Shown: in pieces, positions 9,005 through 23,563 of the stretch | How positions within the stretch are numbered: the first letter of the stretch is position 1 | Layout: each line of letters begins with the position of its first letter | From: a bacterium | GTDB taxonomy: Bacteria > Orphanbacterota > Orphanbacteria > Orphanbacterales > Orphanbacteraceae | Assembly (NCBI GenBank): GCA_025782575.1 | Contig: JALGYY010000009.1 | Coordinates: 99,512-163,511, forward strand | DNA: 64,000 nucleotides | Reading direction: 5' to 3' | Position numbers and translations under genes: made by a program | The notes under the pieces: generated by a model | The model's input: only the letters and a program-made list of their open reading frames with translations | Database searches by the model: none | What the model was told of the DNA's origin: nothing

Positions 9005-10210
9005 ATGCCCATGAACGAGCCGGAATTCTCCTGTCTGACCAACCAACAACTGATCAATTCAATCGAGAACTCAGCACGCGTGGAACGATCGATCTCAATT
9101 GAGATACTCGATCAGCTCGCCGAGATGGACCGTAGAAAAATTCATTTGGAACTCGGCTTCCGATCACTTCACAGCTACTGCGTCTCAAGGCTCCTCTACT
9201 CTGAATCGGCAGCAGGCAGGCGAATCTGCGCGGCACGGGCAATGGCGAAGTGTCCGGAGATTCGCGAGATGATTTCCAATGGCCGTCTGAACCTCAGCAC
9301 GGTATGTGTTCTTTCAAGCGTCTTGAATCAGGCGAACAGGTTCGATCTGCTGAAGCTATCATCAGGCAAGTCGTGGCGGGAAGTAGAGGCGATTGTCGGG
9401 CGACTGAAGCCTCGAAAGAAACTGCGTGAGCGGATCACTCCGGTGACGATCAAAGAACGTCCGGCGGAACAACCGAACCAGACAGAACCGGCTCGTCTTT
9501 TGATCCTGGATGATCATTCCGATCCGACCGAAGAGCGTACCAATTCGAACGGGTGCAAGAAAATTCACCTCCGCCGCGGAGGTAAAAAACCGACCACCTC
9601 GGCCCCACAAGAAAGCCCGGCCGAAGCTCGGCACGATCGATTCGAACTGCGATTCTCTGCGAATCAGGATGTGATGATGATGCTTGAGAAGGCAAGGAAG
9701 ATTGCGCCGGGAAGTTCGACTCTCGAATCCGTCTTCGGCAGAATGGTCCGCGAGTACCTCGAACGACACGATCCGGCGAAGAAACAGAAAAGAAGAGAGA
9801 AACGAAAAGAACTGGAAGCGAGGAAGGCGGAGAGCAAGAGGGCATCGACCGCGGTGTGCGAGCCGGTCAAGGCGGGTGTGGGGGAGAGCGGACCGCTGTT
9901 CGACGATCCGGGCCGTGTCGAAGAGCGTCGATCACGCCACATTCCGTCATATCTGCGTGATGAAATCGCTCTCCGTGACGGCTACCAATGCACTTTCATC
10001 GGACTTGACGGCACACGATGCGATGCCACCCGCCATCTTCAGATCGATCACATCACCCCGTTCGCCTTTGGCGGTGCCCACGAATCAGCTAACCTGCGTC
10101 TCCTCTGCGGACCCCACAACCAGCTGGAAGCAGAGAGGATGGGGCTCAGTCCATCGGATCGAACGGTCGAACAGTCGCTGCAGGTCATGAATGGTCCCCC
10201 TGGGTCATGA
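9005..10210 (+). CDS. HNH endonuclease with DUF222-like N-terminal domain
   Basis: C-terminal HNH nuclease motif (CTFIGLDGTRC...HLQIDHITPFAFGGAHESANLRLLCGPHN). The N-terminal region resembles the DUF222 domain commonly fused to HNH. GC content visibly lower than flanking genes. Confidence 0.8.
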   Translation: MPMNEPEFSCLTNQQLINSIENSARVERSISIEILDQLAEMDRRKIHLELGFRSLHSYCVSRLLYSESAAGRRICAARAMAKCPEIREMISNGRLNLSTVCVLSSVLNQANRFDLLKLSSGKSWREVEAIVGRLKPRKKLRERITPVTIKERPAEQPNQTEPARLLILDDHSDPTEERTNSNGCKKIHLRRGGKKPTTSAPQESPAEARHDRFELRFSANQDVMMMLEKARKIAPGSSTLESVFGRMVREYLERHDPAKKQKRREKRKELEARKAESKRASTAVCEPVKAGVGESGPLFDDPGRVEERRSRHIPSYLRDEIALRDGYQCTFIGLDGTRCDATRHLQIDHITPFAFGGAHESANLRLLCGPHNQLEAERMGLSPSDRTVEQSLQVMNGPPGS

Positions 10211-10339
10211 ACGGTCGTCACAAATCATGATTGGTAGCCCGGGGGCACAAGCTGTCACCTACTAGTCGTTGAATGAAAATGCTTACATGACAGAACAAGG
10301 CCATGTTCTGACAGCCAACAGAACCACAGGACAAAACGA

Positions 10340-10369
10340 AACGCCGGCCAACGAGCGCCGGCCGGCGTT
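10340..10369 (-). terminator. Rho-independent terminator candidate for the thioredoxin-TPR gene
   Basis: GC-rich perfect inverted repeat AACGCCGGCC...GGCCGGCGTT (10-bp stem). On the minus-strand transcript it is followed by CGUUUCGUUUUGU. Lies 24 nt downstream of the stop at 10393. Confidence 0.55.
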
Positions 10370-10392
10370 ACTTCACTCTCTTAACGTAGAGT

Positions 10393-11589
10393 CTATTTGG
10401 CGCTTGCGAGGAGCTCCTCGAAGCGTTCGAGCTGACTCTTGTAGTAGTCGCTTTCGGGATCCTCGGCGAGGGCGGCTCGAACGAGTTCGACCGCATCCTC
10501 ACAGGCTCCACGGGTGTTGCAGATTTCGGCGACAGTATCGAGAATCATCGCCTTTTCCTTGCCCGGTTCGGCAAGCTCCACACCCTTACGCGCCAACTGC
10601 TCCGCCTCTTCCAGATTGATGTTCTGCTCGAAACAGAACCAGGCGAAATTGTTCAGCTGACCCGGCTCATCCATCCAGCCTTCGGGCAGGTTGGCCCGCT
10701 TAATCTTCAGCGCCTTGTCTTTATCTTCTTCGATGTAGAGCGCCTGCTCGATCTCGAGATCGGCGCGCCACTTTCGGACATCCTCATCCTTCGTGTCTGC
10801 TGTTGCCGAAAGAGCCGCGTCGAGAAACCGTTCCTGAAGCTTCGGGTTCTCAGCGCGATGGGCGACACGTGACACGGTATAGGCTGTGAAAAGCAGCTCA
10901 ACCGGCCGCGTATTTTCAGAAGCGATCACAGCATCGGCGCTCGCCAGAAACTCATCGAACGAGTACTTGCCGGCACCGTAGGCGTCGGAAGCCGCATTGA
11001 AAATCTCATAGGCAAAGTCGACGCCGTTGTCATCATTCAATTTTTCAGCATTGCGGTAGTAATTCAGCGCCTCTTCATACTCTCCGGTCGCACCGGCCAC
11101 CCGGCCCAGAACAGCGGCATCCAGAGATGTGGCGTCAGCTTTGTAGCGCTCCGAACGGTTCTCGAGGGTGATGGGATCGGACAAACCCTGGCTCGCCGTT
11201 TCCATGAATGAGAAGGCATCGTTATAACCGACCCACCTGTCGATCAGGTCTCCCTCGGGGGTGACCATGACGAAGTTGGGATAGCTGTGTACATCGTATG
11301 TTTTTGCTACTTCCGGCCCTTCACCCTTCTCCGCATCGACTTTGAAGAAGACAGGCTGGGCAAGAAAACTTTTCAGTGAGGCATTTTCTTCCGCTACACG
11401 AGCGAAACGTTTACAGGATCCTCACCACTCTGTGTAGAAGTCGATCAGTACAGGGGCGTTTCGTTCAGCGGCCAACCGCTTGGCATCCTCGAATGATGCA
11501 GGGTTTTCCGCGAGGGCTCCTGTAGCGACGAAAAAGCAGGCGAATCCTGCCATTCCGGCTGCCAGGAGCTGTCTCGGCATTCCGATCAT
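10393..11589 (-). CDS. Candidate selenoprotein: secreted thioredoxin-fold / TPR-like (CnoX/YbbN-like) protein with in-frame TGA (Sec) in a UxxC redox motif
   Basis: ATG at 11589 preceded by AAGGAG at 7-nt spacing. Signal peptide MIGMPRQLLAAGMAGFACFFVATGALA. Thioredoxin motif VLIDFYTEW-[TGA]-GSCK, where the TGA (11422-11424) sits exactly at the first Cys of WCGxC. The frame continues unbroken into the 291-aa alpha-helical TPR-like domain that the ORF track lists from 11268. Confidence 0.6.
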
Positions 11590-11805
11590 CTTATTCTCCT
11601 TCCGGGAACGCTATCAATTTGACTCCGATATGTATGATAGCCGATTTCTGGCTCAGGGGCGAGCCTCACACTCTCTCACGCATTATACTGTAAAGAAGTC
11701 CACCTATGGTTCACTCACCAATGCGGCCATGATGCTCCCCATTTGAGTCGCTCCCCGACAATTCGAAGGTCCCGGAAGTCCTTTCTCGAATCCCAGGAGG
11801 GTCAA

Positions 11806-12243
11806 ATGCCATCGAATATGCTACGAGCGCTCCTGTTCGTTGCCGTTACACTTCCAGTTCTTACGCCAGACCCGGTCTCTGCCGCCGATACGACCGTGGT
11901 CAATCAGGTCGGCTTCACATTCCAGCCGTCCGTCGTGACGATTCAGGTGGGGGATGCCGTCCGATGGGTGCGAGCGTCAGGAATCCACACCATTACGAGC
12001 GGAACCGGATTCGCTGATCCCAACGTCGCGTTCTTCTTCGATGAGCCGTTTGACTTCGTTGATCCAGAATTCATCTACACCTTTGAGGATACGGCCGGAA
12101 CCTATCCCTATTTCTGCCGCCCTCACGAGGTTCTGGGCATGAAGGGAACGGTGATCGTCGAAAAGACGGATGTGGGTGTGCCGCTCAGCAGCCGATTCGA
12201 GAGAATCGAATGGGGTGCGCTGAAAAAGATCTTTGCAGAGTAG
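11806..12243 (+). CDS. Cupredoxin (plastocyanin/pseudoazurin-like blue copper protein)
   Basis: Start MPSNM preceded by CAGGAGGG, followed by a signal peptide. Type-1 copper ligand pattern near the C-terminus: H (GIHTITSG) ... YPYFCRPHEVLGMKG (Cys, His, Met). Confidence 0.75.
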   Translation: MPSNMLRALLFVAVTLPVLTPDPVSAADTTVVNQVGFTFQPSVVTIQVGDAVRWVRASGIHTITSGTGFADPNVAFFFDEPFDFVDPEFIYTFEDTAGTYPYFCRPHEVLGMKGTVIVEKTDVGVPLSSRFERIEWGALKKIFAE

Positions 12244-12354
12244 CGAAGGTCGAGGAGGGCCATCTTCCCCCTGTCTTCATATTCCATGACTGGAATCGTG
12301 TATTTTCCTGAGCAGAATCTCATACTTCTCTATCATCGGAGTCCTGTGCTCCGC

Positions 12355-12392
12355 ATCTCTTGCCGACCTGTGCGATCGATATAATCTCAGTG
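12355..12392 (+). promoter_or_regulatory. Possible sigma70-type promoter for the repeat lipoprotein gene
   Basis: Perfect TATAAT at 12380-12385. The upstream TTGCCG sits at suboptimal 14-nt spacing. AAGGAG RBS lies 8 nt before the ATG at 12432. Confidence 0.3.
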
Positions 12393-12431
12393 ATTGGATG
12401 TACCATTGACCAGACCCGAAAGGAGTGCTTG

Positions 12432-14276
12432 ATGTACCGACCCGGATGGCTAGGCAAGACCCCGTTTCCAATGGTTCTCGTTCTCGCGTCCCTCTTCGTC
12501 GTGGGATGTGGGGACGACGATCCGACCGGACCGGGGGACGGGGGGGGCGATGGGAATGGCGAAATCGCCACCCGTGATCTTTCGTTCACCATGGGTGGGA
12601 TGGATCCCCATGTGGGGCAACTCCTCGAGATTCGTATCGTAGGCACGGAAGATGGAAAAGTGACCCACGGAAACGAGATGGAAGCCCGCTTCATTCTCGA
12701 CCCCCTTCCTTCGGCCGAATATGTGATCGAGGTTCCCGACGGAGTTTCGGAAGGTCGTCACAATCTAGATTTCACGGCTGACCTGAATGGAAACGGAAGC
12801 TACGATCCGCCCCCGGCCGATCACGCCTGGCGGATCTCTCTCGCCGAGAGCGGGGACCTGACTCCGGAGTTCGCCCATAACGTCGACTTCGTGGACATCG
12901 AAAGTCCGTTACCCGGACAGGCGGGTGATTTCATCATGAATCTGACCGGCATGGATCCGCATGTGGGTCAGCTCTTTGAACTCCGCGTGATGAACACCGG
13001 AACAGGACAGACAGTCGGCCAGTATCGGCTCGGCGCGATCCCCCAGGCCGGCTTCTCTATCATGATCCCGGGGATCATCGAGGACGGGGAAAGTTACCAG
13101 GTCGATTACTACGCCGATCTGAACGGCAGTGGAGGCTACAGTGCGCCGCCGAGCGACCATGCCTGGCGTGATGAGTCCACGGGAGATGCCGGAGGGCTCA
13201 CCATCGACTTTGCTCACAACGTAGACTTCACCGATATCGGTTTTGCAAGCAGTGGCGGCGAGATCGCCCCTGAACCGCTGGTGCTCAGGGATCTCTCGTT
13301 TACACTCATGGGGATGGACCCACATGTGGGGCAGCACCTCGATATCCGGATCGTGGGAGCAGAGGACGGACTCCGAAGCCGCATCATCCTCTATCCACTC
13401 CCCTCGGCCGGGTTTGTCGTAAACGTGCCGAATGGTGTTGCCGAAGGCGCTCACAATCTCGACTTCACGGCTGATCTGAATGGAAACGGAACCTACGATC
13501 CGCCCCCGGTTGATCATGCCTGGCGGATTGCTCTCGCCGAAAACGGCGACCTGACTCCGGAGTTCGCCCATAACGTCAACTTCGTCGATATCGAGAATCC
13601 ACTGCCCATGCAGGCGGGTGACTTCACCATGAATCTGACCGGCATGGATCCTCATGTCGGCCAGCTCTTCGAGCTTCGTGTGATGAACACCGGTACCGGC
13701 CAGACTGTCGGACAGTATCGGCACGAAGCGATCGTGCAGGCGAACTTTTCCTTTGTGATTCCGGGAATCATTGAGAACGGGGAAAACTATCGCGTCGACT
13801 ACTACGCCGATCTGAATGGCAGCGGAGGCTACGATGCGCCGCCGAGCGATCATGCCTGGCGGGAAGACCTTACGGGAGGGTCGGACGGACTCACCATCGA
13901 TTTCGCCCATAACGTGAATTTCACCGATATCGATTTTGTGAGTAGCGGTGGGGTAATCGAAGAAGATCCGGGGGTTACATTCACTCAGATCCAGAATGAG
14001 ATCCTGACGCCGAGCTGTGTGAACGCGTTCTGCCATCCCGGTGGAGGGGCGCCGATGTCCCTCGCTCCAGGTGCTGCCTGGGGGAACCTCGTCGACGTGG
14101 CCTCCGGCTGGGGAATGGATCGTGTGGAGCCGGGCGATGCCGACAACAGTGCCCTCTATCTCAAGGTGATCGGGACGAGCATCGGATCGAGGATGCCCCT
14201 CGGTCGACCGGCTATCTCATCGGACCAGGCGGAGATGATCCGGGCCTGGATCGAAGCGGGAGCTCTCGACAACTGA
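12432..14276 (+). CDS. Lipoprotein with four about 115-aa repeat modules (two about 230-aa tandem units) and a C-terminal Planctomycete-type cytochrome-c-like (PSCyt1-like) domain
   Basis: Lipobox LFVVGC after MYRPGWLGKTPFPMVLVLAS. Repeated MDPHVGQ...DFTADLNGNGSYDPPP.DHAWR modules. C-terminal SCVNAFCHPGG...SALYLKV...MPLGRPAISSDQAEMIRAWIEAGA matches the PSCyt1 domain outline but carries CX4CH rather than CxxCH. Confidence 0.7.
   Translation: MYRPGWLGKTPFPMVLVLASLFVVGCGDDDPTGPGDGGGDGNGEIATRDLSFTMGGMDPHVGQLLEIRIVGTEDGKVTHGNEMEARFILDPLPSAEYVIEVPDGVSEGRHNLDFTADLNGNGSYDPPPADHAWRISLAESGDLTPEFAHNVDFVDIESPLPGQAGDFIMNLTGMDPHVGQLFELRVMNTGTGQTVGQYRLGAIPQAGFSIMIPGIIEDGESYQVDYYADLNGSGGYSAPPSDHAWRDESTGDAGGLTIDFAHNVDFTDIGFASSGGEIAPEPLVLRDLSFTLMGMDPHVGQHLDIRIVGAEDGLRSRIILYPLPSAGFVVNVPNGVAEGAHNLDFTADLNGNGTYDPPPVDHAWRIALAENGDLTPEFAHNVNFVDIENPLPMQAGDFTMNLTGMDPHVGQLFELRVMNTGTGQTVGQYRHEAIVQANFSFVIPGIIENGENYRVDYYADLNGSGGYDAPPSDHAWREDLTGGSDGLTIDFAHNVNFTDIDFVSSGGVIEEDPGVTFTQIQNEILTPSCVNAFCHPGGGAPMSLAPGAAWGNLVDVASGWGMDRVEPGDADNSALYLKVIGTSIGSRMPLGRPAISSDQAEMIRAWIEAGALDN
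12560..13965. repeat. Intragenic tandem duplication (two units of about 700 bp, about 85-90% nt identity)
   Basis: For example 12770-13030 versus 13470-13730 are near-identical at the DNA level (gacttcacggctga[c/t]ctgaatggaaacggaa...). Boundaries are approximate. Confidence 0.75.
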
Positions 14277-14302
14277 TTCGACCCAGGATCAAGGGAACAA
14301 AG

Positions 14303-14339
14303 CAGGAAGCCCGGGGAAATGACTTCTCCGGGCTTCCTG
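14303..14339 (-). terminator. Hairpin terminator between convergent genes
   Basis: Perfect 12-bp inverted repeat CAGGAAGCCCGG / CCGGGCTTCCTG with a 13-nt loop. On the minus strand it is followed by a T-rich tract (CTTTGTTCCCTT). Probably terminates the 14374..15306 gene; no U-tract on the plus side. Confidence 0.5.
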
Positions 14340-14373
14340 GTGAACCGCTGTTCGTCCCCCTGGAACAAAGCCT

Positions 14374-15306
14374 TCAGTCGACCAGGCCAAGCTCCTCCAG
14401 GTAACTCTCCTCACCGTTCTGATGGAGCTTCCAGTAAGGGAGGCGGGTCGTTCCGGTCAACTCACCTGAAACGTCAGGATCGAGCTCCCAGCGGATGATG
14501 CGATGGGGGTAAGGCTCTTCGATCCAGAACTTTCCTTCCCGGCCACCGGCGATCTTCAGCTCGTACACGATCGTCTCATACGAGCCGGCCGGCACGCTGA
14601 TATTCTCAGTCTTCTTCTTTCGAGTTATCTCAGCTGTGGTCCAGTCAGGAGGAACATGGCGAAGCCTGCTGAAAAACGTTCCGGGGAGATAGGCCGATTT
14701 TTTCATTTCTCCCGGCTTCAGAAAGTCGCCCTTCAGCCCTCGAAGCAGCGTGAACAGGTTGTCCTCCACTATTCCGCCGGATGGCGACTTCAATTTTCGG
14801 TTTCCCGATTCCCCCTGGAAATAACTGTGCAGTCTGTTTTCGATTACGTTGCCGCGAAAAATGAACTCATTGTAGACATGGCCGCACCACTCGGCGCTTG
14901 TAAACGTCACTTTGACAGGTGAGAAGTCATCGGTCCGGGCGAATACGGATACCATTGTGTTGTAGTCGTAAATACCGGTCTGGAAATCACGAATCATGTT
15001 CAGTTTGAAGGCTTCAAAAACATCGCCCCCCCAGCCGTCCACTTGGTCTACTTTGACCCGATTCTTTTCGCTGAACGGTTCGGTGACGAAAATCATGACG
15101 CAACTCCCATCCCGATTCTCCCCGTAACGGGAAACGGTCAGATCATAGCCGTTCAGCTCGGCTTTGCCGTCGTGCCAGTAAGATTCGAACGTGCTGCCCA
15201 CAGCTTCCGGGACGGTCATGAGCAGGATCGCAAGTGCGACACCGGGTAGAATGCGGGGCCATCGACAGGTCCGATTCATAGTGATTCTCCAGGGGATCTG
15301 ATTCAT
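14374..15306 (-). CDS. Hypothetical secreted protein, last gene of the oxidase cluster
   Basis: 310-aa ORF with N-terminal signal peptide; no family recognised. Co-directional with and 4 bp downstream of the cox3-like gene. Confidence 0.5.
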   Translation of the reverse strand: MNQIPWRITMNRTCRWPRILPGVALAILLMTVPEAVGSTFESYWHDGKAELNGYDLTVSRYGENRDGSCVMIFVTEPFSEKNRVKVDQVDGWGGDVFEAFKLNMIRDFQTGIYDYNTMVSVFARTDDFSPVKVTFTSAEWCGHVYNEFIFRGNVIENRLHSYFQGESGNRKLKSPSGGIVEDNLFTLLRGLKGDFLKPGEMKKSAYLPGTFFSRLRHVPPDWTTAEITRKKKTENISVPAGSYETIVYELKIAGGREGKFWIEEPYPHRIIRWELDPDVSGELTGTTRLPYWKLHQNGEESYLEELGLVD

Positions 15307-15310
15307 TGAC

Positions 15311-15970
15311 TCAGAAGTAAGGGATCGATTGGATACTGTTCATTACTATGCCCGGATCGAGCGGCGCGCCAGTCCCCCCGCGGCTCCCGAGTACCAGCAT
15401 CGTAAAGATGACGATCCACATTCCTGTCAGGAAATGCCAGTACATCGAGCAGTAGACCACCCCCGGGTGATATTCGCTGTCATAGCGTCCGGCATAAGCC
15501 CGGCGCGTCACGAAGGCGAGAGGAAGGATGCCGCCGATCACATGAAGGGCGTGAAGGCCGGTCAGCATGTAGAAGGTGAAACCGAAGAGCTGGTCGCTGG
15601 TGGCGATACTGGTGCCGATAAGATCGTACCAGTTCCAGGTCTGAGCGGCGAGGAAGAGCGTGCCCAATATGGTCGTCAACAGCATGCCGACTCTAAGCTG
15701 TCTCTGATTGTCCGTTTTCGCTCCGATGTATGCCATGTGCATGGCGATACTGCTTACGACGATCAATGCCGTACTGAACCAGAGGCCGTTCGAGTAGAGC
15801 CTGAGGCCGGCCGGGGGCCACTCGGGCGCCCGTGAACGGATGATCAGATAGCCGATGATGCTCGCACCGAAGAGCATGGTGAGCGCCGCAAGAAAGATGA
15901 ACATGCCGAACTTGCCGGCGTTCGGCACGGACTGGTACCGCGAGTCGTACTCTAGTGCCCGGTCAGGCAT
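15311..15970 (-). CDS. Cytochrome c oxidase subunit III-like paralogue (heme-copper oxidase subunit III family)
   Basis: Five TM helices with the subunit-III signature FYMLTGLHALHVIGGI. Probable start MPDRALEY; the ORF-track N-terminal extension overlaps coxIV. Confidence 0.7.
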   Translation of the reverse strand: MPDRALEYDSRYQSVPNAGKFGMFIFLAALTMLFGASIIGYLIIRSRAPEWPPAGLRLYSNGLWFSTALIVVSSIAMHMAYIGAKTDNQRQLRVGMLLTTILGTLFLAAQTWNWYDLIGTSIATSDQLFGFTFYMLTGLHALHVIGGILPLAFVTRRAYAGRYDSEYHPGVVYCSMYWHFLTGMWIVIFTMLVLGSRGGTGAPLDPGIVMNSIQSIPYF

Positions 15971-15980
15971 GAAGGACCGC

Positions 15981-16331
15981 CTATCTCTGGACAGCCGGGG
16001 CAGGTCCAGGAATGATATCCGACTGGTAGGAGCCGGAATCCATGAGCGCGATGCCGAGGAAGAGCAGGACAAAAAGGAGCGAGCCGAACAGCACGAGGGC
16101 GTTGAACGGCCGGTCCCAGAGTAAATGCATGAAAACAGCGGCGACGAGAGTTGCTTTGGTTCCCGCTATGATGAGAGCGAGCCAGATGTTAAACGGTCCG
16201 AGATCGACCCTTGCCGAGAGTACGGTAAGTATGGTCAACGCAATCAGGGCGACGAAGACCCCCACCAGCAGCCAGATAGGGAGGATGTGGCCGACTCCGT
16301 GGTGTTTCTCCGAGCTATGAGCGGATGCCAT
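15981..16331 (-). CDS. Cytochrome c oxidase subunit IV (prokaryotic caa3-type, CtaF-like)
   Basis: 116 aa, three TM helices. Position and size are typical of COX4_pro immediately after subunit III. Confidence 0.65.
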   Translation of the reverse strand: MASAHSSEKHHGVGHILPIWLLVGVFVALIALTILTVLSARVDLGPFNIWLALIIAGTKATLVAAVFMHLLWDRPFNALVLFGSLLFVLLFLGIALMDSGSYQSDIIPGPAPAVQR

Positions 16332-16340
16332 GATTATCTC

Positions 16341-17252
16341 CTACGAGATCAAATATAAGAGAGGGAACAGGAAAATCCAAATGAGGTCGACCAGATGCCA
16401 GTAAAGGGCGCCGAGATCGATCGGTGTAAAATACTCGGGAGAAAAGTGACCCCGGGCGGTGCGTATGAGGAGCCAGGTCAACATGATCATGCCGGCCAGG
16501 ACGTGAATCCCATGGAGTCCGGTCATGCCGAAGTAGATGCCGAAGAAGATATGCACGTTGTCGGGCGCCACTTCCGCGTGCTCGCCCGCTACCTCGTCCT
16601 TCGATACTTCCGGTGCCAGGCCGAGCGGCCCGATCGCGGCGGTTGCCAGCTTCGTTCGTTCATCTTCCGGAATGATGATCTGTCCGGGTGTCAGATTAGC
16701 TTCTTCATGCACGACAACAGCCGTTCCGTCGATTCCGTGTTCGACTTCTCCCGCATCCTGGTGCACCACCTCGATCTCCGGCGGCTCACCGTGTCCGCCC
16801 GTCTCAACATGCTGCTCCGGGACGTACCTGGTCCCCCAGAGGAGGCCATGCTTCCACTTATGGGAATACTCGATGTACTTGATGCTCATGAACCCGAACC
16901 CGCAGAGAATCGTAATCGCGAGAAGCGCCATGGTGAGGCGCTGCTGTCCGAGCTGGGATGCCCGAACCGCCCACGCCACTGTCAAAGAGCTGAAGAGAAG
17001 GACGCAGGTATTCAACGCACCCATGTTGGGATCGAGAAACTGATGGGCGTAAACGAATATCTCAGGATGGTTGGAACGGTAGACCGTGTATGCACAGAAG
17101 AGCCCGGCAAAGAGCAGGACTTCGGTGGCGAGGAACAGCCACATCCCCATCTTGCCCGCGGCAAACTGCTGTTCTGCCGTGTCGAAGTGGTGCTGGAGCC
17201 ACGAAGGATGCTCGGCGTGGCCCGACGTGCCCTGAGAGTATTTTCTCGCCAT
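16341..17252 (-). CDS. ctaE: Cytochrome c oxidase subunit III
   Basis: Subunit-III family motifs ([15 protein letters not shown]...; [18 protein letters not shown]). Carries an inserted acidic hydrophilic loop of about 90 aa. Confidence 0.8.
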
Positions 17253-18944
17253 CTAGCTCGCCCCCCGGCCCGACTTCGAAACATACCCGCCAGTCTTCTC
17301 ATCCCACTCTAGATCACTGAAGTCATACGGGTCACCCACGTGCGGCGCCTCTTTGAAATTGTAGTACGGGGGAGGGGATGTCATGTGCCATTCCAGTGTG
17401 TTTCCCCCCCACGGGTTGGCGGGAGCCGGCTTACCGCTGACCAGGGATTTGACCAGGTAGTAAAGCATCAGGAAAAACGCGATCGCCATGAGATAAGATC
17501 CGGCCGTTGATATCTGATGGTAGATCGTAAACTCGTCCAGGTAGTGGTAGTACCGCCGGGGCATACCCTGGGAGCCCATGATGAACTGCGTGAAGAAGGT
17601 GGTGTTGAAGCCGATGAAGACGAGCCCGGCGGCGATCCGCCCGAGTTTTTCGTCGTACATCTTGCCGAACATCTTAGGCCACCAGTAGTGCAGGGCGGCG
17701 AGGAATGCGATCACTGTCCCGCCGAACATGGTGTAGTGGAAGTGAGCGACAATGAAGTAGGTGTCGTGCAGGTGAATATCCGTGGCGAGCGCTCCGAGAA
17801 AGAGGCCTGTCAACCCGCCGATCCCGAATGTGAACATGAATGTCAGCGCATAGATCATCGGCGTATCCAGATGAATGTTCCCTTTGTACATCGTGGCCAG
17901 CCAGTTGAACATTTTGATGGCTGTCGGAATCGAGACGCTGAACGTCAGCGCGCTGAATACGAAGTTGGCGAGCGCCGACTGGCCGCTCGTGAACATGTGA
18001 TGGCCCCACACAAGAAAGCTTAATATAGCGAGGGCGATCGAACTGAAAGCGATGAACTTGTAGCCGAAGATGTGTTTCCGGCTGAAGACCGAAAAGATCT
18101 CACTCATGATCGCCATGGCAGGAAGCACCATGATGTAGACCGCGGGATGGGAATAGAACCAGAAGAAGTGCTGAAAAAGTACGGGATCGCCGCCGAGTGC
18201 GGGATCGAAGATGCCGAAACCGAGCGTCCTCTCTACGATAAGAAGCAGAAGCGTGATTCCGAGTACCGGCGTTGCAAGCACCTGCATCACAGCCGTGCCG
18301 TAAATCCCCCACAGAAAAAGGGGCATCTTGAACCAGGTCATGCCCGGCGGGCGAAGCCTGTGAATCGTGACGAGGAAGTTGAGCCCCGTGAAGATCGAAC
18401 TGAAACCGAGAATGAAAGCGCCGGTCACCATCGATATGACCGCCGTATCGGTGCTCGTGCTGTAGGGCGTGTAGAAAGTCCAGCCAGTATCGGCGCCTCC
18501 CATGACGATCGAAGCGACGGCGAAGATGGCTCCGATCACCCAGAGGTACCAGCTCATGAGATTCAGCCGGGGAAAAGCGACATCTTTGGCGCCCAGCATG
18601 AGCGGAAGAGCGAAGTTGCCGAGAGCGGCGGGAATCCCCGGGATAAGAAACAGAAAGATCATGACGGCGCCGTGGAGCGTGAAGAGTTGATTGTATTGAT
18701 CGGCGTCGACGATCGTCTTCCCCGGCGTCAGTAGTTCGGTCCGGATAAGGAGCGCGAATATTCCACCGAGAAAGAATGAAAACAGAATACAGCCCAGATA
18801 CATGACGCCGATCCGTTTGTGATCGAGCGTCCCGAGCCAGGACATGATCCCTTTGCCGTGAGTCAGATAGTTGTCGCTCGATGCCTGGGCCGAAGAGTAG
18901 CCGGCGGCGGAATCGGCGGTAGTGGTGCTGTCAGAACCGTTCAT
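17253..18944 (-). CDS. ctaD: Cytochrome c oxidase subunit I
   Basis: Twelve-TM heme-copper oxidase catalytic subunit ([15 protein letters not shown]...; His ligands in GHHMFTSG and [12 protein letters not shown]). Confidence 0.92.
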
Positions 18945-18957
18945 GGTTTACTCCAGC

Positions 18958-20031
18958 CTAATCCAGATCGTCCGTCGCCGAATCCGTCTCCGGCTGAGCC
19001 TCGGACTCGGTCGGAGTCTCGGTCTCAGCTTCTACGGCGCCGTAGGGCGACAATGACTTGATGAATGCGATGATCGCGGTGACTTCCTTGTCTTTCAAGC
19101 GGCCCTTGTATGTGGGCATGACCGGATCGAATCCGGCGACGATCTGCGACTGCGGATCGAGCATCGACTGGCGATAGTAGTTTTCCTCTGCCAGAACCGT
19201 GCTGCCATCTGTAAGTACGTGATCGATCCCGTAGGAATCCTTGAAGCTCGGCCCGATCTTGATCGTGCCGTCCAACGTGTGACACTGCTTGCAGCCCCGC
19301 TGTTTGTACAGGAGCTCTCCTGCTTCCGCAGGGGCCAGCTTGTCGAGAAATCCGGATGATTCCTCGAGCCAGCGATCGAATTCGCCCGTGTCGTGGACGA
19401 TCACCTGTGCCAGCATATCCGAATGGCCGGTGCCGCAATACTCGGCGCAGAAGATCTGATAGCTACCCGGCTTGGTCGCTTCGAACCAGGTCACGTTGTA
19501 ACGTCCGGGCACGATATCCCTCTTCACACGGAAAGCCGGGACAAAAAACGAATGAATGACATCTTCCGATGTCATGACGAGGCGAATCGGCCTGTCGACC
19601 GGGACGTGGAGATTTTCGGAAACATAGCCGTCAGGATAGGTGAAGTTCCAGGACCATCGCTGGGCCGTGACGCCGATCTCATAGGAGTTCGACGGAGGAA
19701 CCACGAGGTCCATGAAACCCTTATATCCATAGTAAAAAATGAAGAACAGAAGAATAGAGGGAATCACGCTCCAGGTAACCTCGAGAAGCGTGCTGTGGCT
19801 CGGTGAAGGCTGTTCCTTGTGGCCCGGTCTCGCCCGGTATCGGATAACGAACAGGATGGTCAACCCGACGATCAGCACAAAGAAGAACGTCGAGAGCCAG
19901 TAGATGAACATGAAGATCCAGTCGACGTTTTTCGCAGCCGTCGAGGCCTGTTCCGGCAACCAGAAAGTTTTCTCACCGTTCAGCAATGCCATGCCGAACA
20001 GGCTCGCCAGAAGATCAGTAAGCATACTCAA
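18958..20031 (-). CDS. ctaC: Cytochrome c oxidase subunit II with C-terminal cytochrome c domain (caa3-type)
   Basis: CuA site FCAEYCGTGHSDM; C-terminal heme-c motif CKQCH...M. Confidence 0.9.
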   Translation of the reverse strand: MSMLTDLLASLFGMALLNGEKTFWLPEQASTAAKNVDWIFMFIYWLSTFFFVLIVGLTILFVIRYRARPGHKEQPSPSHSTLLEVTWSVIPSILLFFIFYYGYKGFMDLVVPPSNSYEIGVTAQRWSWNFTYPDGYVSENLHVPVDRPIRLVMTSEDVIHSFFVPAFRVKRDIVPGRYNVTWFEATKPGSYQIFCAEYCGTGHSDMLAQVIVHDTGEFDRWLEESSGFLDKLAPAEAGELLYKQRGCKQCHTLDGTIKIGPSFKDSYGIDHVLTDGSTVLAEENYYRQSMLDPQSQIVAGFDPVMPTYKGRLKDKEVTAIIAFIKSLSPYGAVEAETETPTESEAQPETDSATDDLD

Positions 20032-20852
20032 GTCAAATCGCCTCTATGAGATGGCTTCTTCCGTTTTGCCTCGCGGCGCCAATACACGAAGAGCATCGTG
20101 CCGAGGCCGAGAACGGCCAAGTAGCCACCCCCCATCATGATCTTACGTGCCGCCGGAGTATAAATTCCCTTTGCAGAGTCGTAGTAATAGCAATACATCA
20201 GTATTTTGTCGAAAGCCGAGCCGTATTTCCCTTCCGATGCCTCCAGAAGGGCGAGACGCAGGTCTTTCGGGCTGTGCTCGATGCCGTACAGGTATCGGGA
20301 GATCCGGCCGTCGGGTGTGCAGACGAACAGACATGCCGCGTGAGCGTACTCTTTGCGCTCGTCATTCCAGGCGAATCCGAATCCCACCGCGTCGGTAAGC
20401 TCGGTGATTTCCTTCTCGCGGCCCGTAAGAAAATGCCAGCCCTTAACGGCGCTCGGCCGGCCGAATTCCTTGATGTAGTTCTGCTGTTTCAACTTTGCCA
20501 GTGTGTGCGATTCGAGTGGATCGATGCTCAGTGTAACGACCTCGTATTCCTCGCCGGGCGTCCAGTTCAGGCCGCGCATGCCGTCCATCATTCCATTGAT
20601 CACGAGCCCGCAGAGCATGGGGCACCCGTAGTAGCCGAGGTTCAGGATTACCGGTCTGTTTTCCCGGTTGAAATAGTCCCCCAGCCTGATCATCTTGCCC
20701 AGCTGGTCCTCGAACTCGAGGTCGAGAGGGATAGAAGCATTCAGGTACTCTGTAATTCCCACGCCTTCCAGGTCGGCGGGAAGAGGTTCCTGCCGCTGGG
20801 ACCACGCGCTCGATGTCACTGTGAGAAGCAGGAGTGCAAGTATGCGAAACAT
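20028..20852 (-). CDS. SCO1/SenC family copper chaperone
   Basis: Thioredoxin-like fold with the Sco motif CPMLC plus a conserved His. Signal peptide and a C-terminal TM. The 3' end overlaps the ctaC start by 4 bp. Confidence 0.8.
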   Translation of the reverse strand: MFRILALLLLTVTSSAWSQRQEPLPADLEGVGITEYLNASIPLDLEFEDQLGKMIRLGDYFNRENRPVILNLGYYGCPMLCGLVINGMMDGMRGLNWTPGEEYEVVTLSIDPLESHTLAKLKQQNYIKEFGRPSAVKGWHFLTGREKEITELTDAVGFGFAWNDERKEYAHAACLFVCTPDGRISRYLYGIEHSPKDLRLALLEASEGKYGSAFDKILMYCYYYDSAKGIYTPAARKIMMGGGYLAVLGLGTMLFVYWRREAKRKKPSHRGDLT

Positions 20853-21154
20853 CAGCGGGAATCTCCTCCGGCAGCCAGGTCACGCACGACAAGTTCCATG
20901 GCACGATCAATCGGAATACCGGCCCGGCCATCCGCTTCGCTGACCCATCGATAACGGTTCTGATCGGCCTGCTGCTTGGTACGCAGAATGGCAATCTCCT
21001 CCGGGGCCACGGTTTTCCGTACGATCTCCGCGTCTTCAATCCTGTAGAACATCGCCTGGAGCGCGATTACGCTGGCGACCGTCACGATCGCACCGACCGA
21101 AATCCAGATCCCCGTCCAGATCGGATTCGGATCGTTTCCCGTTAGCAGAGCCAC
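20852..21154 (-). CDS. Small single-TM membrane protein between actF and SCO (possibly ActG-like)
   Basis: 100 aa with one hydrophobic helix. Position matches the small accessory subunit found in some ACIII clusters. Confidence 0.4.
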   Translation of the reverse strand: MALLTGNDPNPIWTGIWISVGAIVTVASVIALQAMFYRIEDAEIVRKTVAPEEIAILRTKQQADQNRYRWVSEADGRAGIPIDRAMELVVRDLAAGGDSR

Positions 21155-21165
21155 GTCGAAATCTC

Positions 21166-22368
21166 CTAACTGTTCTCGAATGCGAGCGAATCCGATAGTC
21201 GTGGATCCTTACTCGGAACGAGTGAAGCCCGGCCCAGGCGGCGTGCCGCAACCGAAATCCACAGCCCGCCGATCGCGAGGAACAGTGTTAAGTCAAGCAG
21301 ATGGAACGACACGCCGTTGTTGAACCACTCGGGCATGGCGATCCAGTAAATATCAATCCAGTGAACGGCCAGGACATACAGCGCAATAAAGCGAAGCAGT
21401 GCGGAACGCCGCTTGGGGATCCGCGAAAGGAGTCCGAGAAACGGAACGACGAAATGGCCGAACAGAATAAACCAGGTGACGGGCGTCCAGGAACCGGTCT
21501 GTCGATGGAGGAACCAGACCGTCTCTTCCGGGATATTGCCGTACCAGTAGAGCATGTATTGCGAGAATCCGATGTACGCCCAGAATACTGTAAACGCGAA
21601 CATCAGCTTTCCGATGTCGTGGAAATGCTCCAGGGTGACCGACTGCAGTAGCCGCCCCTTCTTGTGGAGATAGTGAAAAATAAGCGCGAACATGGCGAAA
21701 CTGCCGAGTACGCTTCCTGCGAAGTAGTAAACCCCGAAGATCGTGCTGTACCAGTGCGGGTTGATCGACATGAGCAGATCAAACGACGCGAATGTGAGTG
21801 AGAACGCGAACAGGATCACCGACAGAGGGCTGAACTTCTCCATACGAAGGGTCAACTTGATGTCGCCTGTTTCATCCTGCTTGACTGAATTGGTGTAGAA
21901 GAACCGGGCGAGGCCGGCCCAAATCCCGAAGTAGAGGACCCAGCGGAGAATGAAGAACGTGCGATTCAGATAACCGAGTTTGCCTGCGAGGATTTCGTCA
22001 TCCACCGCATGGGGATCGAGCCAGTGAAACAGATGATCCATGCCGGCAATGACCGGAAGAAAGAGGATCGCCATGAGAAGGAAATTCGACGAAAGTACTT
22101 CGGCTACTCTTCTTACGACGACGCTCCAGCTTGCCCGAACGACATGCTGAATGATGACGAAGAAGAGCGCTCCCAGTGTGAGGCTCAAGAAATACCCGAA
22201 ATTAACTAGATAGGACTGGAAGAATCTCTCCAGTCCGCCGCCCAGCATGAAAGTGAGTATCAGGCTCGCGAGAATCCCGAAAACGCTCACGAAGAGGGCG
22301 TTCCGAGCGACATTCGGCGCGAGATCGCTGAACGATCGGTTCTCCTGACTTGTATCGATTATGCGCAT
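21166..22368 (-). CDS. actF: Alternative complex III subunit ActF (NrfD-like polytopic membrane protein)
   Basis: About 10 TM helices, paralogous to ActC. Probable start at MRIIDTSQ, which removes the overlap with actE. Confidence 0.7.
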   Translation of the reverse strand: MRIIDTSQENRSFSDLAPNVARNALFVSVFGILASLILTFMLGGGLERFFQSYLVNFGYFLSLTLGALFFVIIQHVVRASWSVVVRRVAEVLSSNFLLMAILFLPVIAGMDHLFHWLDPHAVDDEILAGKLGYLNRTFFILRWVLYFGIWAGLARFFYTNSVKQDETGDIKLTLRMEKFSPLSVILFAFSLTFASFDLLMSINPHWYSTIFGVYYFAGSVLGSFAMFALIFHYLHKKGRLLQSVTLEHFHDIGKLMFAFTVFWAYIGFSQYMLYWYGNIPEETVWFLHRQTGSWTPVTWFILFGHFVVPFLGLLSRIPKRRSALLRFIALYVLAVHWIDIYWIAMPEWFNNGVSFHLLDLTLFLAIGGLWISVAARRLGRASLVPSKDPRLSDSLAFENS

Positions 22369-22379
22369 CTTCTCTCGCT

Positions 22380-23024
22380 CTATCGAAGCTTGCTCTGCTT
22401 GGCCGCAGGCACATCGTCGATTGTGGCGTTCTGACTTCTCTGTAGGGCACGAATATAGGCAACAATCGCCCATCGATCTTCGGTTCCGATCTGTGTGCCG
22501 TACGCGGGCATACTTCGAATTCCGTTGCTGATCGTATTGAACAGATTCCCGACCGGTTTACTCCGGATGACATCGGAGTGATAGCTGAGCGGCGGGATCC
22601 ATATCCCTTCCCGCAGACTCTCGGCACGCTGCGAAACGATGCCGTTGCCGTCACCGGTGTAGCCGTGGCAGGGGAGACAGAAAATGTCGTAGCGCTCCCG
22701 CCCTCTCTGCATCATCCGGGAGGTCACTTCCATCGGGAAGTCCGTTGCCCACTCGCCGCCTGTCTTGCCACGGTAGAGGTGATCGTCCTCCTGAAGTTCC
22801 CCGCGAGGAATCGTCCCCGGCACGCGGGGTCGCATGGCCCGGCCGTCGGCGAAGAGGCCGTTCACCGCCTGGGCTTTGAATTTCGGCTGCTGATCCATGT
22901 CGAAGATAATCTGGGGCCGCGTTTCGGTTGACTTGGTCGAGCGAATCTTCGCCACGATCGCGAATGGAACGAGCGCCAGACAGAGCGTGATGATACCGAC
23001 AGGAAGAAACCAGCGGGGGATCAT
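22380..23024 (-). CDS. actE: Alternative complex III subunit ActE (monoheme cytochrome c)
   Basis: N-terminal TM/lipid anchor and a single CLPCH heme motif. Confidence 0.75.
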   Translation of the reverse strand: MIPRWFLPVGIITLCLALVPFAIVAKIRSTKSTETRPQIIFDMDQQPKFKAQAVNGLFADGRAMRPRVPGTIPRGELQEDDHLYRGKTGGEWATDFPMEVTSRMMQRGRERYDIFCLPCHGYTGDGNGIVSQRAESLREGIWIPPLSYHSDVIRSKPVGNLFNTISNGIRSMPAYGTQIGTEDRWAIVAYIRALQRSQNATIDDVPAAKQSKLR

Positions 23025-23563
23025 TCGTCCTCCTCCACTGTTTCGATCGCCGTGCCGCCGAGTGTTTCCAGAAATGCCCTGGTTTTCTCCAGATCAAATC
23101 GGGGGTCCTTCGCCTCGATGGAGATGAAGAACCGGTCGCTCGTCGCCCGGCGGAAGCGTTCGCTAGTGAAGAGCGCGTGATAAAGCTCGGGGAGCTGGTT
23201 CAGTGCGAGCATGCCGAAAAACGCCCCGAACGCGCTGAAAAGAATAGTCAATTCGAATGTCACCGGAATGAACGCCGGAATACTCCAGAGCGGCTTTCCG
23301 GAAACGAGATAGGGGTAGTCGTACGCGTTCATCCACCACTGGAGAAGCATAGCCAGAGTACATCCCATGAAACCGCCGCCGAAGACAAGCCAGGGAAGAA
23401 TACTCATCTTCATACCCATGGCGCCGTCCATACCGTGGATGGGGAAGGGGGTGTGGGTATCCCACTTTGTATAGCCCTCATCACGGACTTCTCTGGCTGC
23501 GTTAAGAATCGTCGTAACGTCCTCGAACTCGACGAGATATCCGAAGAGGCTCGGTTTACTCAT
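23021..23563 (-). CDS. actD: Alternative complex III subunit ActD (membrane subunit)
   Basis: 180 aa with 2 TM helices, located between actC and actE with 4-bp overlaps. Confidence 0.65.
   Translation of the reverse strand: MSKPSLFGYLVEFEDVTTILNAAREVRDEGYTKWDTHTPFPIHGMDGAMGMKMSILPWLVFGGGFMGCTLAMLLQWWMNAYDYPYLVSGKPLWSIPAFIPVTFELTILFSAFGAFFGMLALNQLPELYHALFTSERFRRATSDRFFISIEAKDPRFDLEKTRAFLETLGGTAIETVEEDE

What the first reader, a model, noticed from the sequence alone, without database searches (positions are those of the whole stretch)
10393..11589. Candidate selenocysteine-containing periplasmic thioredoxin-TPR (CnoX/YbbN-like) protein: TGA at the catalytic CxxC position
The frame reads M-I-G-M-P-R-Q-L-L-A-A-G-M-A-G-F-A-C-F-F-V-A-T-G-A-L-A (signal peptide) ... 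VLIDFYTEW-TGA-GSCKRF... and then runs without interruption through about 340 further codons into a TPR-like helical domain. The TGA (11422-11424, codon 56) replaces exactly the first Cys of the WCGxC thioredoxin motif. That is the position where known selenoproteins of this fold carry Sec in a UxxC motif. The start codon has a near-consensus RBS (AAGGAG, 7 nt). A possible 7-bp stem-loop (UUUCGCU-CGUGU-AGCGGAA) begins 14 nt 3' of the UGA, in the window where bacterial SECIS elements sit. A secreted Trx+TPR chaperedoxin architecture with Sec would be unusual. The gene also sits next to a cupredoxin and close to the respiratory cluster.
Basis: partly seen in the sequence, partly recalled or inferred. 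Interest (0 to 1): 0.75.

Follow-up and report, generated by a model that had tools for sequence, protein, structure and literature searches.

The report
Exported thioredoxin–TPR selenoprotein gene
This gene almost certainly encodes a real selenocysteine-containing, exported thioredoxin–TPR protein whose in-frame TGA and recoding hairpin are conserved in about 50 other genomes, revealing a selenoprotein family that public annotation routinely truncates.

Summary
Window 11589..10393 (- strand) is one 398-codon frame with TGA at codon 56 (11424..11422), the first position of the thioredoxin W-C-x-x-C motif.

- **Conservation of the TGA:** 51 of 80 orthologous loci carry TGA at that column and 25 carry TGC/TGT. 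The loci come from Eisenbacteria, Zixibacteria, Krumholzibacteria, Gemmatimonadota and Acidobacteriota MAGs.
- **Recoding hairpin:** All 276 pair cells are paired, compensatory changes occur, and the loop is C-G-(U/G)-G-N. It meets the published bacterial SECIS model.
- **Contrast with Cys forms:** these pair at only 47% in the same columns. Synonymous variation is suppressed only over the hairpin and only in TGA forms.
- **Not an assembly error:** an independent assembly reproduces the TGA.
- **Not a reassigned codon:** TGA is the commonest ordinary stop in the window.
- **Protein:** all members have signal peptides. The Trx domain resembles periplasmic reductases and is followed by about 8 TPR repeats.

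The YbbN/CnoX likeness holds only at the level of domain architecture. The cupredoxin/oxidase neighbourhood is not conserved. The Sec machinery could not be checked. This is a new member (arguably a new family) of the well-known Trx-fold UxxC selenoproteins.

The parts
10393..11589 (-). Complete selenoprotein gene: 398 sense codons (Sec at codon 56) plus the TAG stop at 10393-10395
   Evidence: Searches give the single frame; the Thioredoxin domain spans the TGA; full-length Cys orthologues and TGA orthologues are colinear over the whole length.
11596..11603 (-). Ribosome-binding site GGAAGGAG, 6 nt upstream of the ATG at 11589
   Evidence: Read directly from the sequence.
11509..11589 (-). 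Signal peptide (codons 1-27, MIGMPRQLLAAGMAGFACFFVATGALA|ENP)
   Evidence: a hydrophobic N-terminus with a basic n-region and an AxA site is present in 75 of 75 evaluable family members, several with lipoboxes; this segment has low pLDDT in the model. The cleavage site is inferred.
11422..11424 (-). UGA codon 56, read as selenocysteine (first position of the W-U-G-S-C redox motif)
   Evidence: TGA at this column in 51 of 80 loci and TGC/TGT in 25; all 38 homologues that cover the column have Cys.
11413..11415 (-). Codon 59 (TGT), the resolving cysteine of the UxxC motif
   Evidence: T10 and G11 of the alignment are invariant in all 47 Sec sequences.
11389..11407 (-). Bacterial SECIS hairpin: 7-bp stem UUUCGCU/AGCGGAA with apical loop CGUGU (11396-11400). 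The loop starts 21 nt after the UGA.
   Evidence: 100% of 276 cells paired, 3 pairs with compensatory change, slid controls 35-58%; 47% paired in Cys forms. RNAalifold finds the same helix plus pair 18-36 (GC 25, UA 7, CG 5); loop positions G26 and G28 are invariant; suppressed third-position variation; fits the published bSECIS constraints.
11209..11469 (-). Thioredoxin-fold domain (residues 41-127), of the Thioredoxin_7/DsbD-gamma type
10396..11172 (-). All-helical TPR-like domain (about residues 140-398, some 8 helix pairs) with a highly conserved C-terminal block (LNxFAW(W/F)CFE...ILDT(L/V)AEIC) and three conserved cysteines
   Evidence: the AF2 model of orthologue P0002 has pLDDT 93.6, with helices 128-398; 8-repeat consensus TPR proteins match at TM 0.55-0.60; invariant columns.
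10330..10369 (-). Intrinsic terminator (13-bp GC-rich stem, then a T-run) 24 nt after the stop codon, which points to a monocistronic gene

Best explanation
The gene encodes an exported (periplasmic or envelope) selenoprotein. It consists of a signal peptide, a thioredoxin-fold domain with redox motif W-U-G-S-C, and a superhelix of about 8 TPR repeats.

During translation the UGA at codon 56 is decoded as selenocysteine. The 7-bp hairpin that begins 14 nt downstream, with loop C-G-U-G-U, acts as a bacterial SECIS. It recruits SelB carrying Sec-tRNA(Sec) to the ribosome.

What is shown: the in-frame TGA, its conservation, Cys at the same column in homologues, the hairpin and its covariation, the signal peptides, and the fold.

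What is inferred: after Sec-translocon export the protein works as a thiol-disulfide reductase or isomerase.
- The selenolate of U56 attacks a substrate disulfide or sulfenate.
- C59 resolves the mixed Se-S intermediate.
- The TPR domain holds unfolded or extended client polypeptides.
- A DsbD/CcdA-type membrane electron donor recycles the protein.

Sec rather than Cys would give higher nucleophilicity and resistance to irreversible over-oxidation in an oxidising compartment.
For: 1. The TGA aligns with the catalytic Cys. All 38 homologues that cover the column have C..C, and 81 others are gene-caller truncations starting at 18 different positions just after it.
2. At the DNA level, 51 of 80 orthologous loci from at least five phylum-level lineages have TGA at that column, in frame with both flanks. 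25 have TGC/TGT.
3. Hairpin in TGA forms: 100% pairing in 46 distinct sequences, compensatory changes at 3-4 pairs (CG/UA, GC/AU, GC/UA/CG), and invariant loop G26 and G28. Cys forms pair at 47%.
4. Third-codon-position entropy over the hairpin is 0.84 bits in Sec forms against 1.38 in Cys forms. It is equal downstream, 1.59 against 1.52.
5. The hairpin fits the published bSECIS model: 5-nt loop, 7-bp stem, G then U/G at loop positions 2-3, 21 nt of spacing, MFE -10.2 kcal/mol over UGA..+48.
6. L034 has TGC but retains the hairpin, and it is sister to a TGA locus. This looks like a caught Sec-to-Cys switch.
7. The TGA is not an error: an independent assembly is identical.
8. The TGA is not a reassigned codon: it ends 17 of 40 long ORFs in the window.
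9. No usable restart exists. The first in-frame start after the TGA is codon 108, inside the Trx fold.
10. Export: signal peptides in 75 of 75 members.
11. Reductase-like Trx domain: the nearest structures are periplasmic reductases, and Cys forms carry WCGPC or DsbD-gamma-like WCVYC/WCSAC motifs.
Against: - No Sec machinery (selA, selB, selD, tRNA-Sec) lies in the 64-kb window or in any fetched flank. The rest of the genome could not be read.
- The minimal hairpin in this particular gene is weak on its own (-5.5 kcal/mol).
- The 66-nt fold is not significantly more stable than shuffles (z = -1.35).
- Single-sequence MFE recovers the hairpin in only 24 of 47 Sec sequences.
- The covariance-model separation partly reflects coding similarity.
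- There are no experimental data of any kind. The redox direction, the client-binding role of the TPR domain and the electron donor are all inferred from homology.
- No conserved gene neighbour supports any specific pathway.
Confidence: 0.85

Rival explanations
1. The TGA is a genuine stop. The locus is then a pseudogene, an assembly or sequencing error, or two separate products: a 55-aa peptide plus an independently initiated TPR protein, as gene callers annotate it.
For: Public gene calls split the locus exactly this way. The window gives 55 aa + 291 aa, and about 60-68% of family members in the databases are 'truncated' TPR or hypothetical proteins. TGA is the commonest stop codon in the window.
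Against: - The same TGA, in frame with conserved coding sequence on both sides, occurs in 51 loci from several phyla.
- The Trx domain spans it.
- Predicted restart positions are scattered over 18 sites. In the window the first possible start is codon 108, which would remove the signal peptide and half the Trx fold.
- A covarying hairpin accompanies TGA but not TGC/TGT.
- An independent assembly is identical.
Confidence: 0.03
2. The UGA is read through as a standard amino acid, without selenium. Possible routes are a genome-wide code change (table 4 or 25), a suppressor tRNA, or Cys/Trp near-cognate read-through stimulated by the hairpin.
For: The Sec machinery was not observed. Downstream hairpins can stimulate read-through in other systems (general knowledge).
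Against: - TGA terminates 17 of 40 long ORFs in the window, and no other gene needs read-through.
- The codon replaces a catalytic Cys, the signature of Sec. The element fits the SelB-type bSECIS model, including G followed by U/G in a small apical loop at the right distance.
- The same pattern holds in many unrelated lineages.
Confidence: 0.04
3. Functional rival, with Sec decoding accepted. The protein is a dedicated assembly factor for the neighbouring respiratory machinery: a TlpA/CcmG-like reductase that keeps the Cu(A)/Sco/cupredoxin cysteines or the apocytochrome c CxxCH motif reduced. It would not be a general envelope reductase or chaperone.
For: In the window the gene sits between ctaA/ctaB/DUF3179 and cupredoxin/cox3-cox1-cox2(cyt c)/Sco/ACIII. 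L016 has it directly beside the cox3 genes. The nearest Trx structures include the CcmG-like HP0377 and an exported cytochrome-c-biogenesis protein.
Against: Only 1 of 80 related loci shares this neighbourhood, and no neighbour is conserved family-wide. There is no match to TlpA/Redoxin/AhpC-TSA-type models. The gene has its own terminator and is divergent from the cupredoxin gene.
Confidence: 0.15

Closest known systems
Thioredoxin-fold UxxC bacterial selenoproteins: 'Thioredoxin (Trx)' PF00085, 'Thiol:disulfide interchange protein' PF13098, and GOS 'Trx-like 2' cd02953/DsbD-gamma (PMC13188914 Table 1; PMC2398784 Table 2)
   Same: Sec replaces the N-terminal Cys of the CxxC motif in a Trx fold. 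Cys-form homologues are common. The SECIS hairpin lies in the coding region just 3' of the UGA. The same Pfam domains score above threshold.
   Different: This family adds a C-terminal TPR domain of about 260 residues and a signal peptide or lipobox. TGA is the majority state (about 60%). It is found in Eisenbacteria, Zixibacteria, Krumholzibacteria, Gemmatimonadota and Acidobacteriota MAGs. No TPR-containing entry exists among the 119 listed families, and no NCBIfam model reaches its cut-off.
E. coli YbbN / CnoX 'chaperedoxin' (PDB 3qou)
   Same: An N-terminal Trx domain is followed by a helical TPR domain. YbbN is the best Foldseek hit over both domains (E 3.3e-6). Some paralogues of this family have lost the redox cysteines (SxxC, SxxS), as E. 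coli YbbN has.
Periplasmic Trx-fold reductases: H. pylori HP0377 (4fyb), the Bacteroides 'putative disulphide isomerase' 2kuc, DsbD-gamma (1vrs), DsbH (2ju5)
   Different: They are single-domain, or part of the DsbD membrane protein. They contain no Sec and have no TPR extension.
Trx7/PDZ domain-containing selenoprotein (NF041199; PMC13188914 Table 1)
   Same: A Thioredoxin_7-type domain is fused to a protein-binding module in a predicted selenoprotein.
   Different: Its motif is CxxU rather than UxxC, and its partner is PDZ rather than TPR. It does not match our protein at E <= 0.01 in NCBIfam.
Consensus bacterial SECIS (bSECISearch model) and the E. coli fdhF SECIS
   Same: A stem-loop lies immediately 3' of the UGA. 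The small apical loop has G followed by U/G. The spacing is within 16-37 nt.
   Different: This is a compact 7-bp helix with no conserved bulge or conserved lower stem. The loop G-U sits at +26/+27 from the U of UGA, against +23/+24 in fdhF (my recollection of the fdhF numbering). No Rfam family matches it.

Membership tests
Bacterial selenoprotein gene (Sec-UGA + bSECIS) | In-frame UGA aligned with Cys in homologues (Cys/Sec pair) | tested here: met
   all 38 homologues that cover the column have Cys; 25 loci have TGC/TGT and 51 have TGA at the same codon.
Bacterial selenoprotein gene (Sec-UGA + bSECIS) | In-frame UGA conserved in at least two different sequences (criterion of PMC1088965) | tested here: met
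   51 distinct loci from several phyla.
Bacterial selenoprotein gene (Sec-UGA + bSECIS) | Stem-loop fitting the bSECIS model: loop of 3-9 nt, stem of 4-16 bp, G in the first two loop positions followed by G/U, 16-37 nt from the UGA to the loop | tested here: met
   Loop C-G-U-G-U (5 nt), 7-bp stem, G26 then U27, 21 nt of spacing. The loop is C/G-G-U/G-G-N in all 47 sequences.
Bacterial selenoprotein gene (Sec-UGA + bSECIS) | SECIS MFE <= -7.5 kcal/mol | tested here: inconclusive
   For the window, the hairpin alone is -5.5 kcal/mol and UGA..+48 is -10.2. For the family, 30 of 47 pass on the hairpin alone and 45 of 47 pass over UGA..+48. The result depends on which span the criterion is applied to.
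Bacterial selenoprotein gene (Sec-UGA + bSECIS) | Evolutionary support for the RNA structure (covariation, and absence from Cys forms) | tested here: met
   100% against 47% pairing, compensatory changes at 3-4 pairs, and third-position entropy of 0.84 against 1.38 bits.
Bacterial selenoprotein gene (Sec-UGA + bSECIS) | selA, selB, selC (tRNA-Sec) and selD present in the same genome | not testable with these tools
   None lies in the 64-kb window or in the locus flanks.
Bacterial selenoprotein gene (Sec-UGA + bSECIS) | Selenium incorporation shown experimentally | not testable with these tools
   This needs 75Se labelling or mass spectrometry.
Thioredoxin fold (Pfam Thioredoxin / Thioredoxin_7 / Thioredoxin_2) | Profile match above the curated cut-off, and a Trx fold | tested here: met
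CnoX / YbbN chaperedoxin | Trx domain followed by a TPR domain | tested here: met
CnoX / YbbN chaperedoxin | Cytoplasmic protein working with GroEL/DnaK | tested here: not met
   Signal peptide or lipobox in 75 of 75 members.
CnoX / YbbN chaperedoxin | Detectable homology or superposable two-domain structure with YbbN | tested here: inconclusive
TlpA / ResA / CcmG-type reductases (cd02966, Redoxin/AhpC-TSA) | Match to Redoxin/AhpC-TSA-type models, and linkage to cytochrome c or Cu(A) maturation genes | tested here: not met
   No such Pfam or NCBIfam match. Linkage to cox genes appears in only 2 of 81 loci.

The most novel reading that the evidence does not exclude
This is the founding example of an unrecognised, widely distributed family of exported Trx-TPR selenoproteins: an extracytoplasmic 'seleno-chaperedoxin'. 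On this reading, selenocysteine is the majority and probably ancestral state across several poorly studied phyla (Eisenbacteria, Zixibacteria, Krumholzibacteria and relatives). The TPR domain would deliver unfolded envelope clients to a selenium-based redox centre. It would be the first TPR-fused selenoprotein and the first periplasmic analogue of CnoX.
Probability: 0.3. Interest if true: 0.65.

Novelty: new member of a known kind. Interest (0 to 1): 0.5.

Why it matters
- **Annotation:** about 60% of this family's members in public databases are wrongly annotated as N-terminally truncated 'TPR repeat' or 'hypothetical' proteins, because the Sec-UGA is read as a stop. Recognising the family corrects that.
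- **Distribution of the Sec trait:** it shows that the Sec-decoding trait is used in candidate phyla of the FCB group, where it is hardly documented. Only three papers in the searchable library mention both selenocysteine and Zixibacteria.
- **A test set for SECIS prediction:** the family provides a clean, covariation-supported compact SECIS, which is useful for training SECIS and selenoprotein predictors.
- **Biology:** an exported Trx domain with a long TPR client-binding arm and a selenium active site suggests a specialised envelope redox-repair or folding activity. The natural Sec, Cys, SxxC and SxxS variants form a ready-made series for testing what Sec contributes.

It does not change how Sec insertion or Trx chemistry is understood. 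Most of the 119 known prokaryotic selenoprotein families are Trx-like.

Tried and rejected
- **Second selenoprotein in the window.** A six-frame scan for TGA flanked by long open stretches found only the target. The DUF3179 gene at 7443-8510 belongs to a known selenoprotein family, but here it is a complete Cys-form ORF.
- **Sec machinery.** ARAGORN found no tRNA in the window and no tRNA-Sec in the 80 locus flanks. Pfam annotation of about 40 window ORFs found no SelA/SelB/SelD.
- **Source organism.** It was not named. P0001 has no accession or name and is not on record by exact look-up. Only an unnamed Logan contig from SRR32233994 was found. The source genome was not among the GTDB representatives scanned. 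The nearest relatives are Eisenbacteria-like MAGs at about 52% identity.
- **Conserved neighbourhood.** tblastn of 18 window neighbours against the loci, plus all-against-all clustering of flank ORFs, found only lineage-specific neighbours. I therefore rejected the cupredoxin/oxidase link as a family property.
- **Conserved lower stem enclosing the UGA.** It is present in the window's MFE fold and in 20 of 47 single-sequence folds. RNAalifold does not support it, so I do not claim it.
- **Rfam.** No family matched at gathering threshold or at E <= 10.
- **Structure prediction.** The AFDB fold library was unavailable.
- **Literature.** No paper combines selenoprotein, tetratricopeptide, UxxC and thioredoxin. 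'TPR' does not occur in the reviews, in the BSepDB, deep-Sep or GOS papers.
Full report
**Observation**

On the minus strand, window 11589..10393 is one continuous reading frame of 398 sense codons. It is interrupted only by TGA at 11424..11422 (codon 56), in the context VLIDFYTEW-TGA-GSCKRF, and ends at TAG 10395..10393.
- A strong ribosome-binding site, GGAAGGAG, lies 6 nt upstream of the ATG.
- Mechanical ORF calling splits the frame into a 55-aa and a 291-aa ORF.
- With Cys substituted for the stop, Pfam Thioredoxin (E 2.7e-13), Thioredoxin_7 and Thioredoxin_2 all score above their cut-offs over residues 31-127. They therefore span the TGA. TPR-type matches follow.
- An intrinsic terminator (13-bp stem plus T-run) sits 24 nt after the stop.

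**Is the TGA real, and is TGA otherwise a stop here?**
- An independent Logan assembly of sequencing run SRR32233994 contains a 14,560-bp contig. It is identical to window 10045..24604 with 0 mismatches, including the TGA and the downstream hairpin. Its gene caller also produced the 55-aa + 291-aa split.
- TGA terminates 17 of the 40 longest stop-free stretches in the window, so the organism does not read TGA as sense in general.
- No other TGA in the window is flanked by convincing coding sequence on both sides.

**Comparative evidence for Sec: proteins**

A search of 5.8 billion proteins returned 120 close homologues in two classes.
- 38 cover the TGA column, and every one has Cys there and Cys three residues later (W-C-x-x-C).
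- 81 are shorter (mostly 315-340 aa) and begin after that column, at 18 different positions. This is what gene callers produce when they hit an in-frame stop and pick the next available start.

An exhaustive HMMER search of 1.84 billion cluster representatives gave 232 family members at E <= 1e-30. Among 138 newly retrieved ones, 83 are shorter than 350 aa and lack the CxxC, 38 are full-length with [W/F]CxxC, and the rest have variant motifs.

**Comparative evidence for Sec: DNA**

I fetched 80 genomic loci encoding relatives (37-53% identity). They come from MAGs labelled Eisenbacteria/Eiseniibacteriota, Zixibacteria, Krumholzibacteriota, Gemmatimonadota, Acidobacteriota and 'Ignavibacteria'. 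Reading the codon directly gave:
- 51 loci with TGA at exactly this column, always in frame with conserved coding sequence on both sides;
- 25 with TGC/TGT;
- one SxxC and two SxxS;
- one disrupted.

**The SECIS element**

I aligned 47 TGA-form sequences from the UGA to +60, without gaps. Positions 18-24 pair with 30-36 around a 5-nt loop.
- For the six core pairs, 100% of 276 cells form standard pairs. Three pairs show changes on both sides: CG/UA 14 times at the closing pair, GC/AU 4 times, CG/UA once. No shuffle reached the observed covariation score, and sliding the partner by 1-3 columns drops pairing to 35-58%.
- RNAalifold independently predicts the same helix and adds pair 18-36 (GC 25, UA 7, CG 5). 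Both of its positions are third codon positions.
- The loop is C/G-G-U/G-G-N, with G26 and G28 invariant.
- In 22 Cys-form orthologues the same columns pair in only 47% of cells, no better than shuffled or slid controls.
- Third-codon-position entropy over the hairpin is 0.84 bits in Sec forms against 1.38 in Cys forms. Downstream the two sets are equal, 1.59 against 1.52. There is therefore an RNA-level constraint that exists only where the codon is TGA.
- A covariance model scores all TGA loci at 38-76 bits and Cys loci at 30 bits or less. The exception is L034 (43 bits). This is a TGC gene that still carries the hairpin and is sister to TGA locus L027 in a neighbour-joining tree, so it looks like a recent Sec-to-Cys conversion. 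The model includes coding columns, so part of this separation is protein similarity.

**Comparison with the published bSECIS model**

The model (PMC13188914, Fig. 2 legend) requires a 3-9 nt loop, a 4-16 bp stem, G in the first two loop positions usually followed by G/U, 16-37 nt from the UGA to the loop, and MFE <= -7.5 kcal/mol.
- The window element has a 5-nt loop, a 7-bp stem, G then U at loop positions 2-3, and 21 nt of spacing.
- Its MFE is -10.2 kcal/mol over UGA..+48.
- The bare hairpin is only -5.5 kcal/mol, and the 66-nt fold is not significantly better than shuffles (z = -1.35).
- The thermodynamic criterion is the one soft spot. The evolutionary evidence is far stronger than the energy.
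- No Rfam family matches.

**The protein**
- All 75 family members with an evaluable N-terminus, both Sec and Cys forms, start with a signal peptide: a basic n-region, a hydrophobic core and an AxA site. Several have lipoboxes. The family is therefore extracytoplasmic.
- An AlphaFold2 model of the 47%-identical Cys orthologue P0002 is confident (pLDDT 93.6, pTM 0.86). It shows a Trx fold followed by about 16 helices.
- Cys forms carry the reducing-type WCGPC motif or DsbD-gamma-like WCVYC/WCSAC motifs.
- The helical domain superposes on 8-repeat consensus TPR proteins at TM 0.55-0.60.

**Context**

The window is a respiratory island. In order it contains ctaA, ctaB, DUF3179, an unknown ORF, this gene, a divergent cupredoxin, two unknown ORFs, cox3/cox4/cox3/cox1/cox2-cyt c/Sco, and Alternative Complex III.
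- Only L016 shares the cox3 neighbours.
- The cupredoxin is found beside none of the 80 relatives, and no neighbour is conserved family-wide.
- I therefore treat an oxidase-assembly role as a minority hypothesis.

**Most likely mechanism**

Shown: UGA-56, the conserved SECIS, the Cys/Sec pairing, the export signal, and the Trx + TPR fold.

Inferred:
- SelB with Sec-tRNA(Sec) binds the hairpin and inserts Sec.
- The exported protein acts as a thiol-disulfide reductase or isomerase, using U56 as the attacking nucleophile and C59 as the resolving residue.
- The TPR superhelix binds extended client polypeptides.
- A DsbD/CcdA-type system re-reduces the protein.

Paralogues with SxxC or SxxS show that the TPR scaffold retains a function without redox chemistry. 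That fits a client-binding role.

**Sec/Cys evolution**

In a rough NJ tree, Sec and Cys forms are interleaved.
- Sec forms occupy most of the main subfamily.
- A distinct Cys/Ser paralogue subfamily sits next to an ECF sigma-factor gene. It co-occurs with a Sec paralogue in the same MAGs.

**What could not be done**

The decisive check, selA/selB/selC/selD in the same genome, was impossible.
- The window holds none of these genes, nor do the flanks.
- The organism could not be named.

**Novelty**

Trx-fold UxxC selenoproteins with Cys homologues and a coding-region SECIS are the commonest kind of bacterial selenoprotein.
- The 2026 inventory of 119 families lists generic Trx, thiol:disulfide-interchange and a Trx7/PDZ fusion, but nothing with a TPR domain. 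'TPR' and 'tetratricopeptide' do not occur in that review or in the BSepDB, deep-Sep, GOS or 2022 review papers.
- No paper in the library combines the relevant terms.
- No NCBIfam model reaches its cut-off.
- NCBI and JGI records name the TGA forms 'hypothetical' or 'TPR repeat' proteins.

By the field's convention of one family per domain architecture, this would count as a new selenoprotein family. In kind it is a new member of a well-known class.

**Verdict**

This is a genuine, well-supported selenoprotein gene. Interest is moderate.

Noticed in passing
L034:2717-2776 (Zixibacteria MAG AS27yjCOA_100): This is a TGC (Cys) orthologue that still carries the SECIS hairpin (UUUGCC-CGUGA-GGCAAA). 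It scores 43 bits with the SECIS model and is sister to TGA locus L027, so it looks like a recent Sec-to-Cys conversion with a 'fossil' SECIS.
   Followed up: partly
L018, L036, L047, L050, L059, L060, L061, L065, L066, L075, L077: A paralogous subfamily has CxxC, SxxC or SxxS in place of UxxC. In 10 of these 11 loci (all but L075) it is followed by an ECF-type sigma-factor gene. It co-occurs with a Sec paralogue in the same MAG, for example L001 + L036 and L062 + L077.
   Followed up: partly
window 7443-8510 (+): This DUF3179 protein lies immediately downstream of ctaB. DUF3179 is a listed selenoprotein family (UxxC/T), but the gene here is a complete Cys-form ORF with no in-frame TGA.
   Followed up: yes
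window 10396-10650 (-), C-terminal TPR block: Three cysteines in the last TPR repeats (FCF, EIC, GAC in the window protein) are invariant or nearly so across the family. In an exported protein they could form a structural disulfide or a second redox site. I did not check the model geometry.
   Followed up: no
window 9005-10210 (+), 12360-14276 (+), 14374-15306 (-): Three sizeable ORFs (401, 638 and 310 aa) inside the respiratory island have no Pfam match. The 310-aa ORF is conserved next to the cox3 genes in L016 (59% identity).
   Followed up: partly
window 60660-62195 (-): A single ORF fuses ThiS, ThiF/MoeB and rhodanese domains, giving a sulfur-carrier/activating-enzyme fusion. MoeB and rhodanese are themselves known selenoprotein families elsewhere, but this ORF has no in-frame TGA.
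   Followed up: no
window 53989-60570 (-): A very large ORF of 2193 aa, not examined.
   Followed up: no
window 11375-11427 (-): In the window's own MFE fold, the UGA lies in a 7-bp lower stem (GGUGAGG with CCUCACU) that encloses the SECIS hairpin. An outer helix appears in 20 of 47 single-sequence folds, but the consensus fold does not support it.
   Followed up: partly
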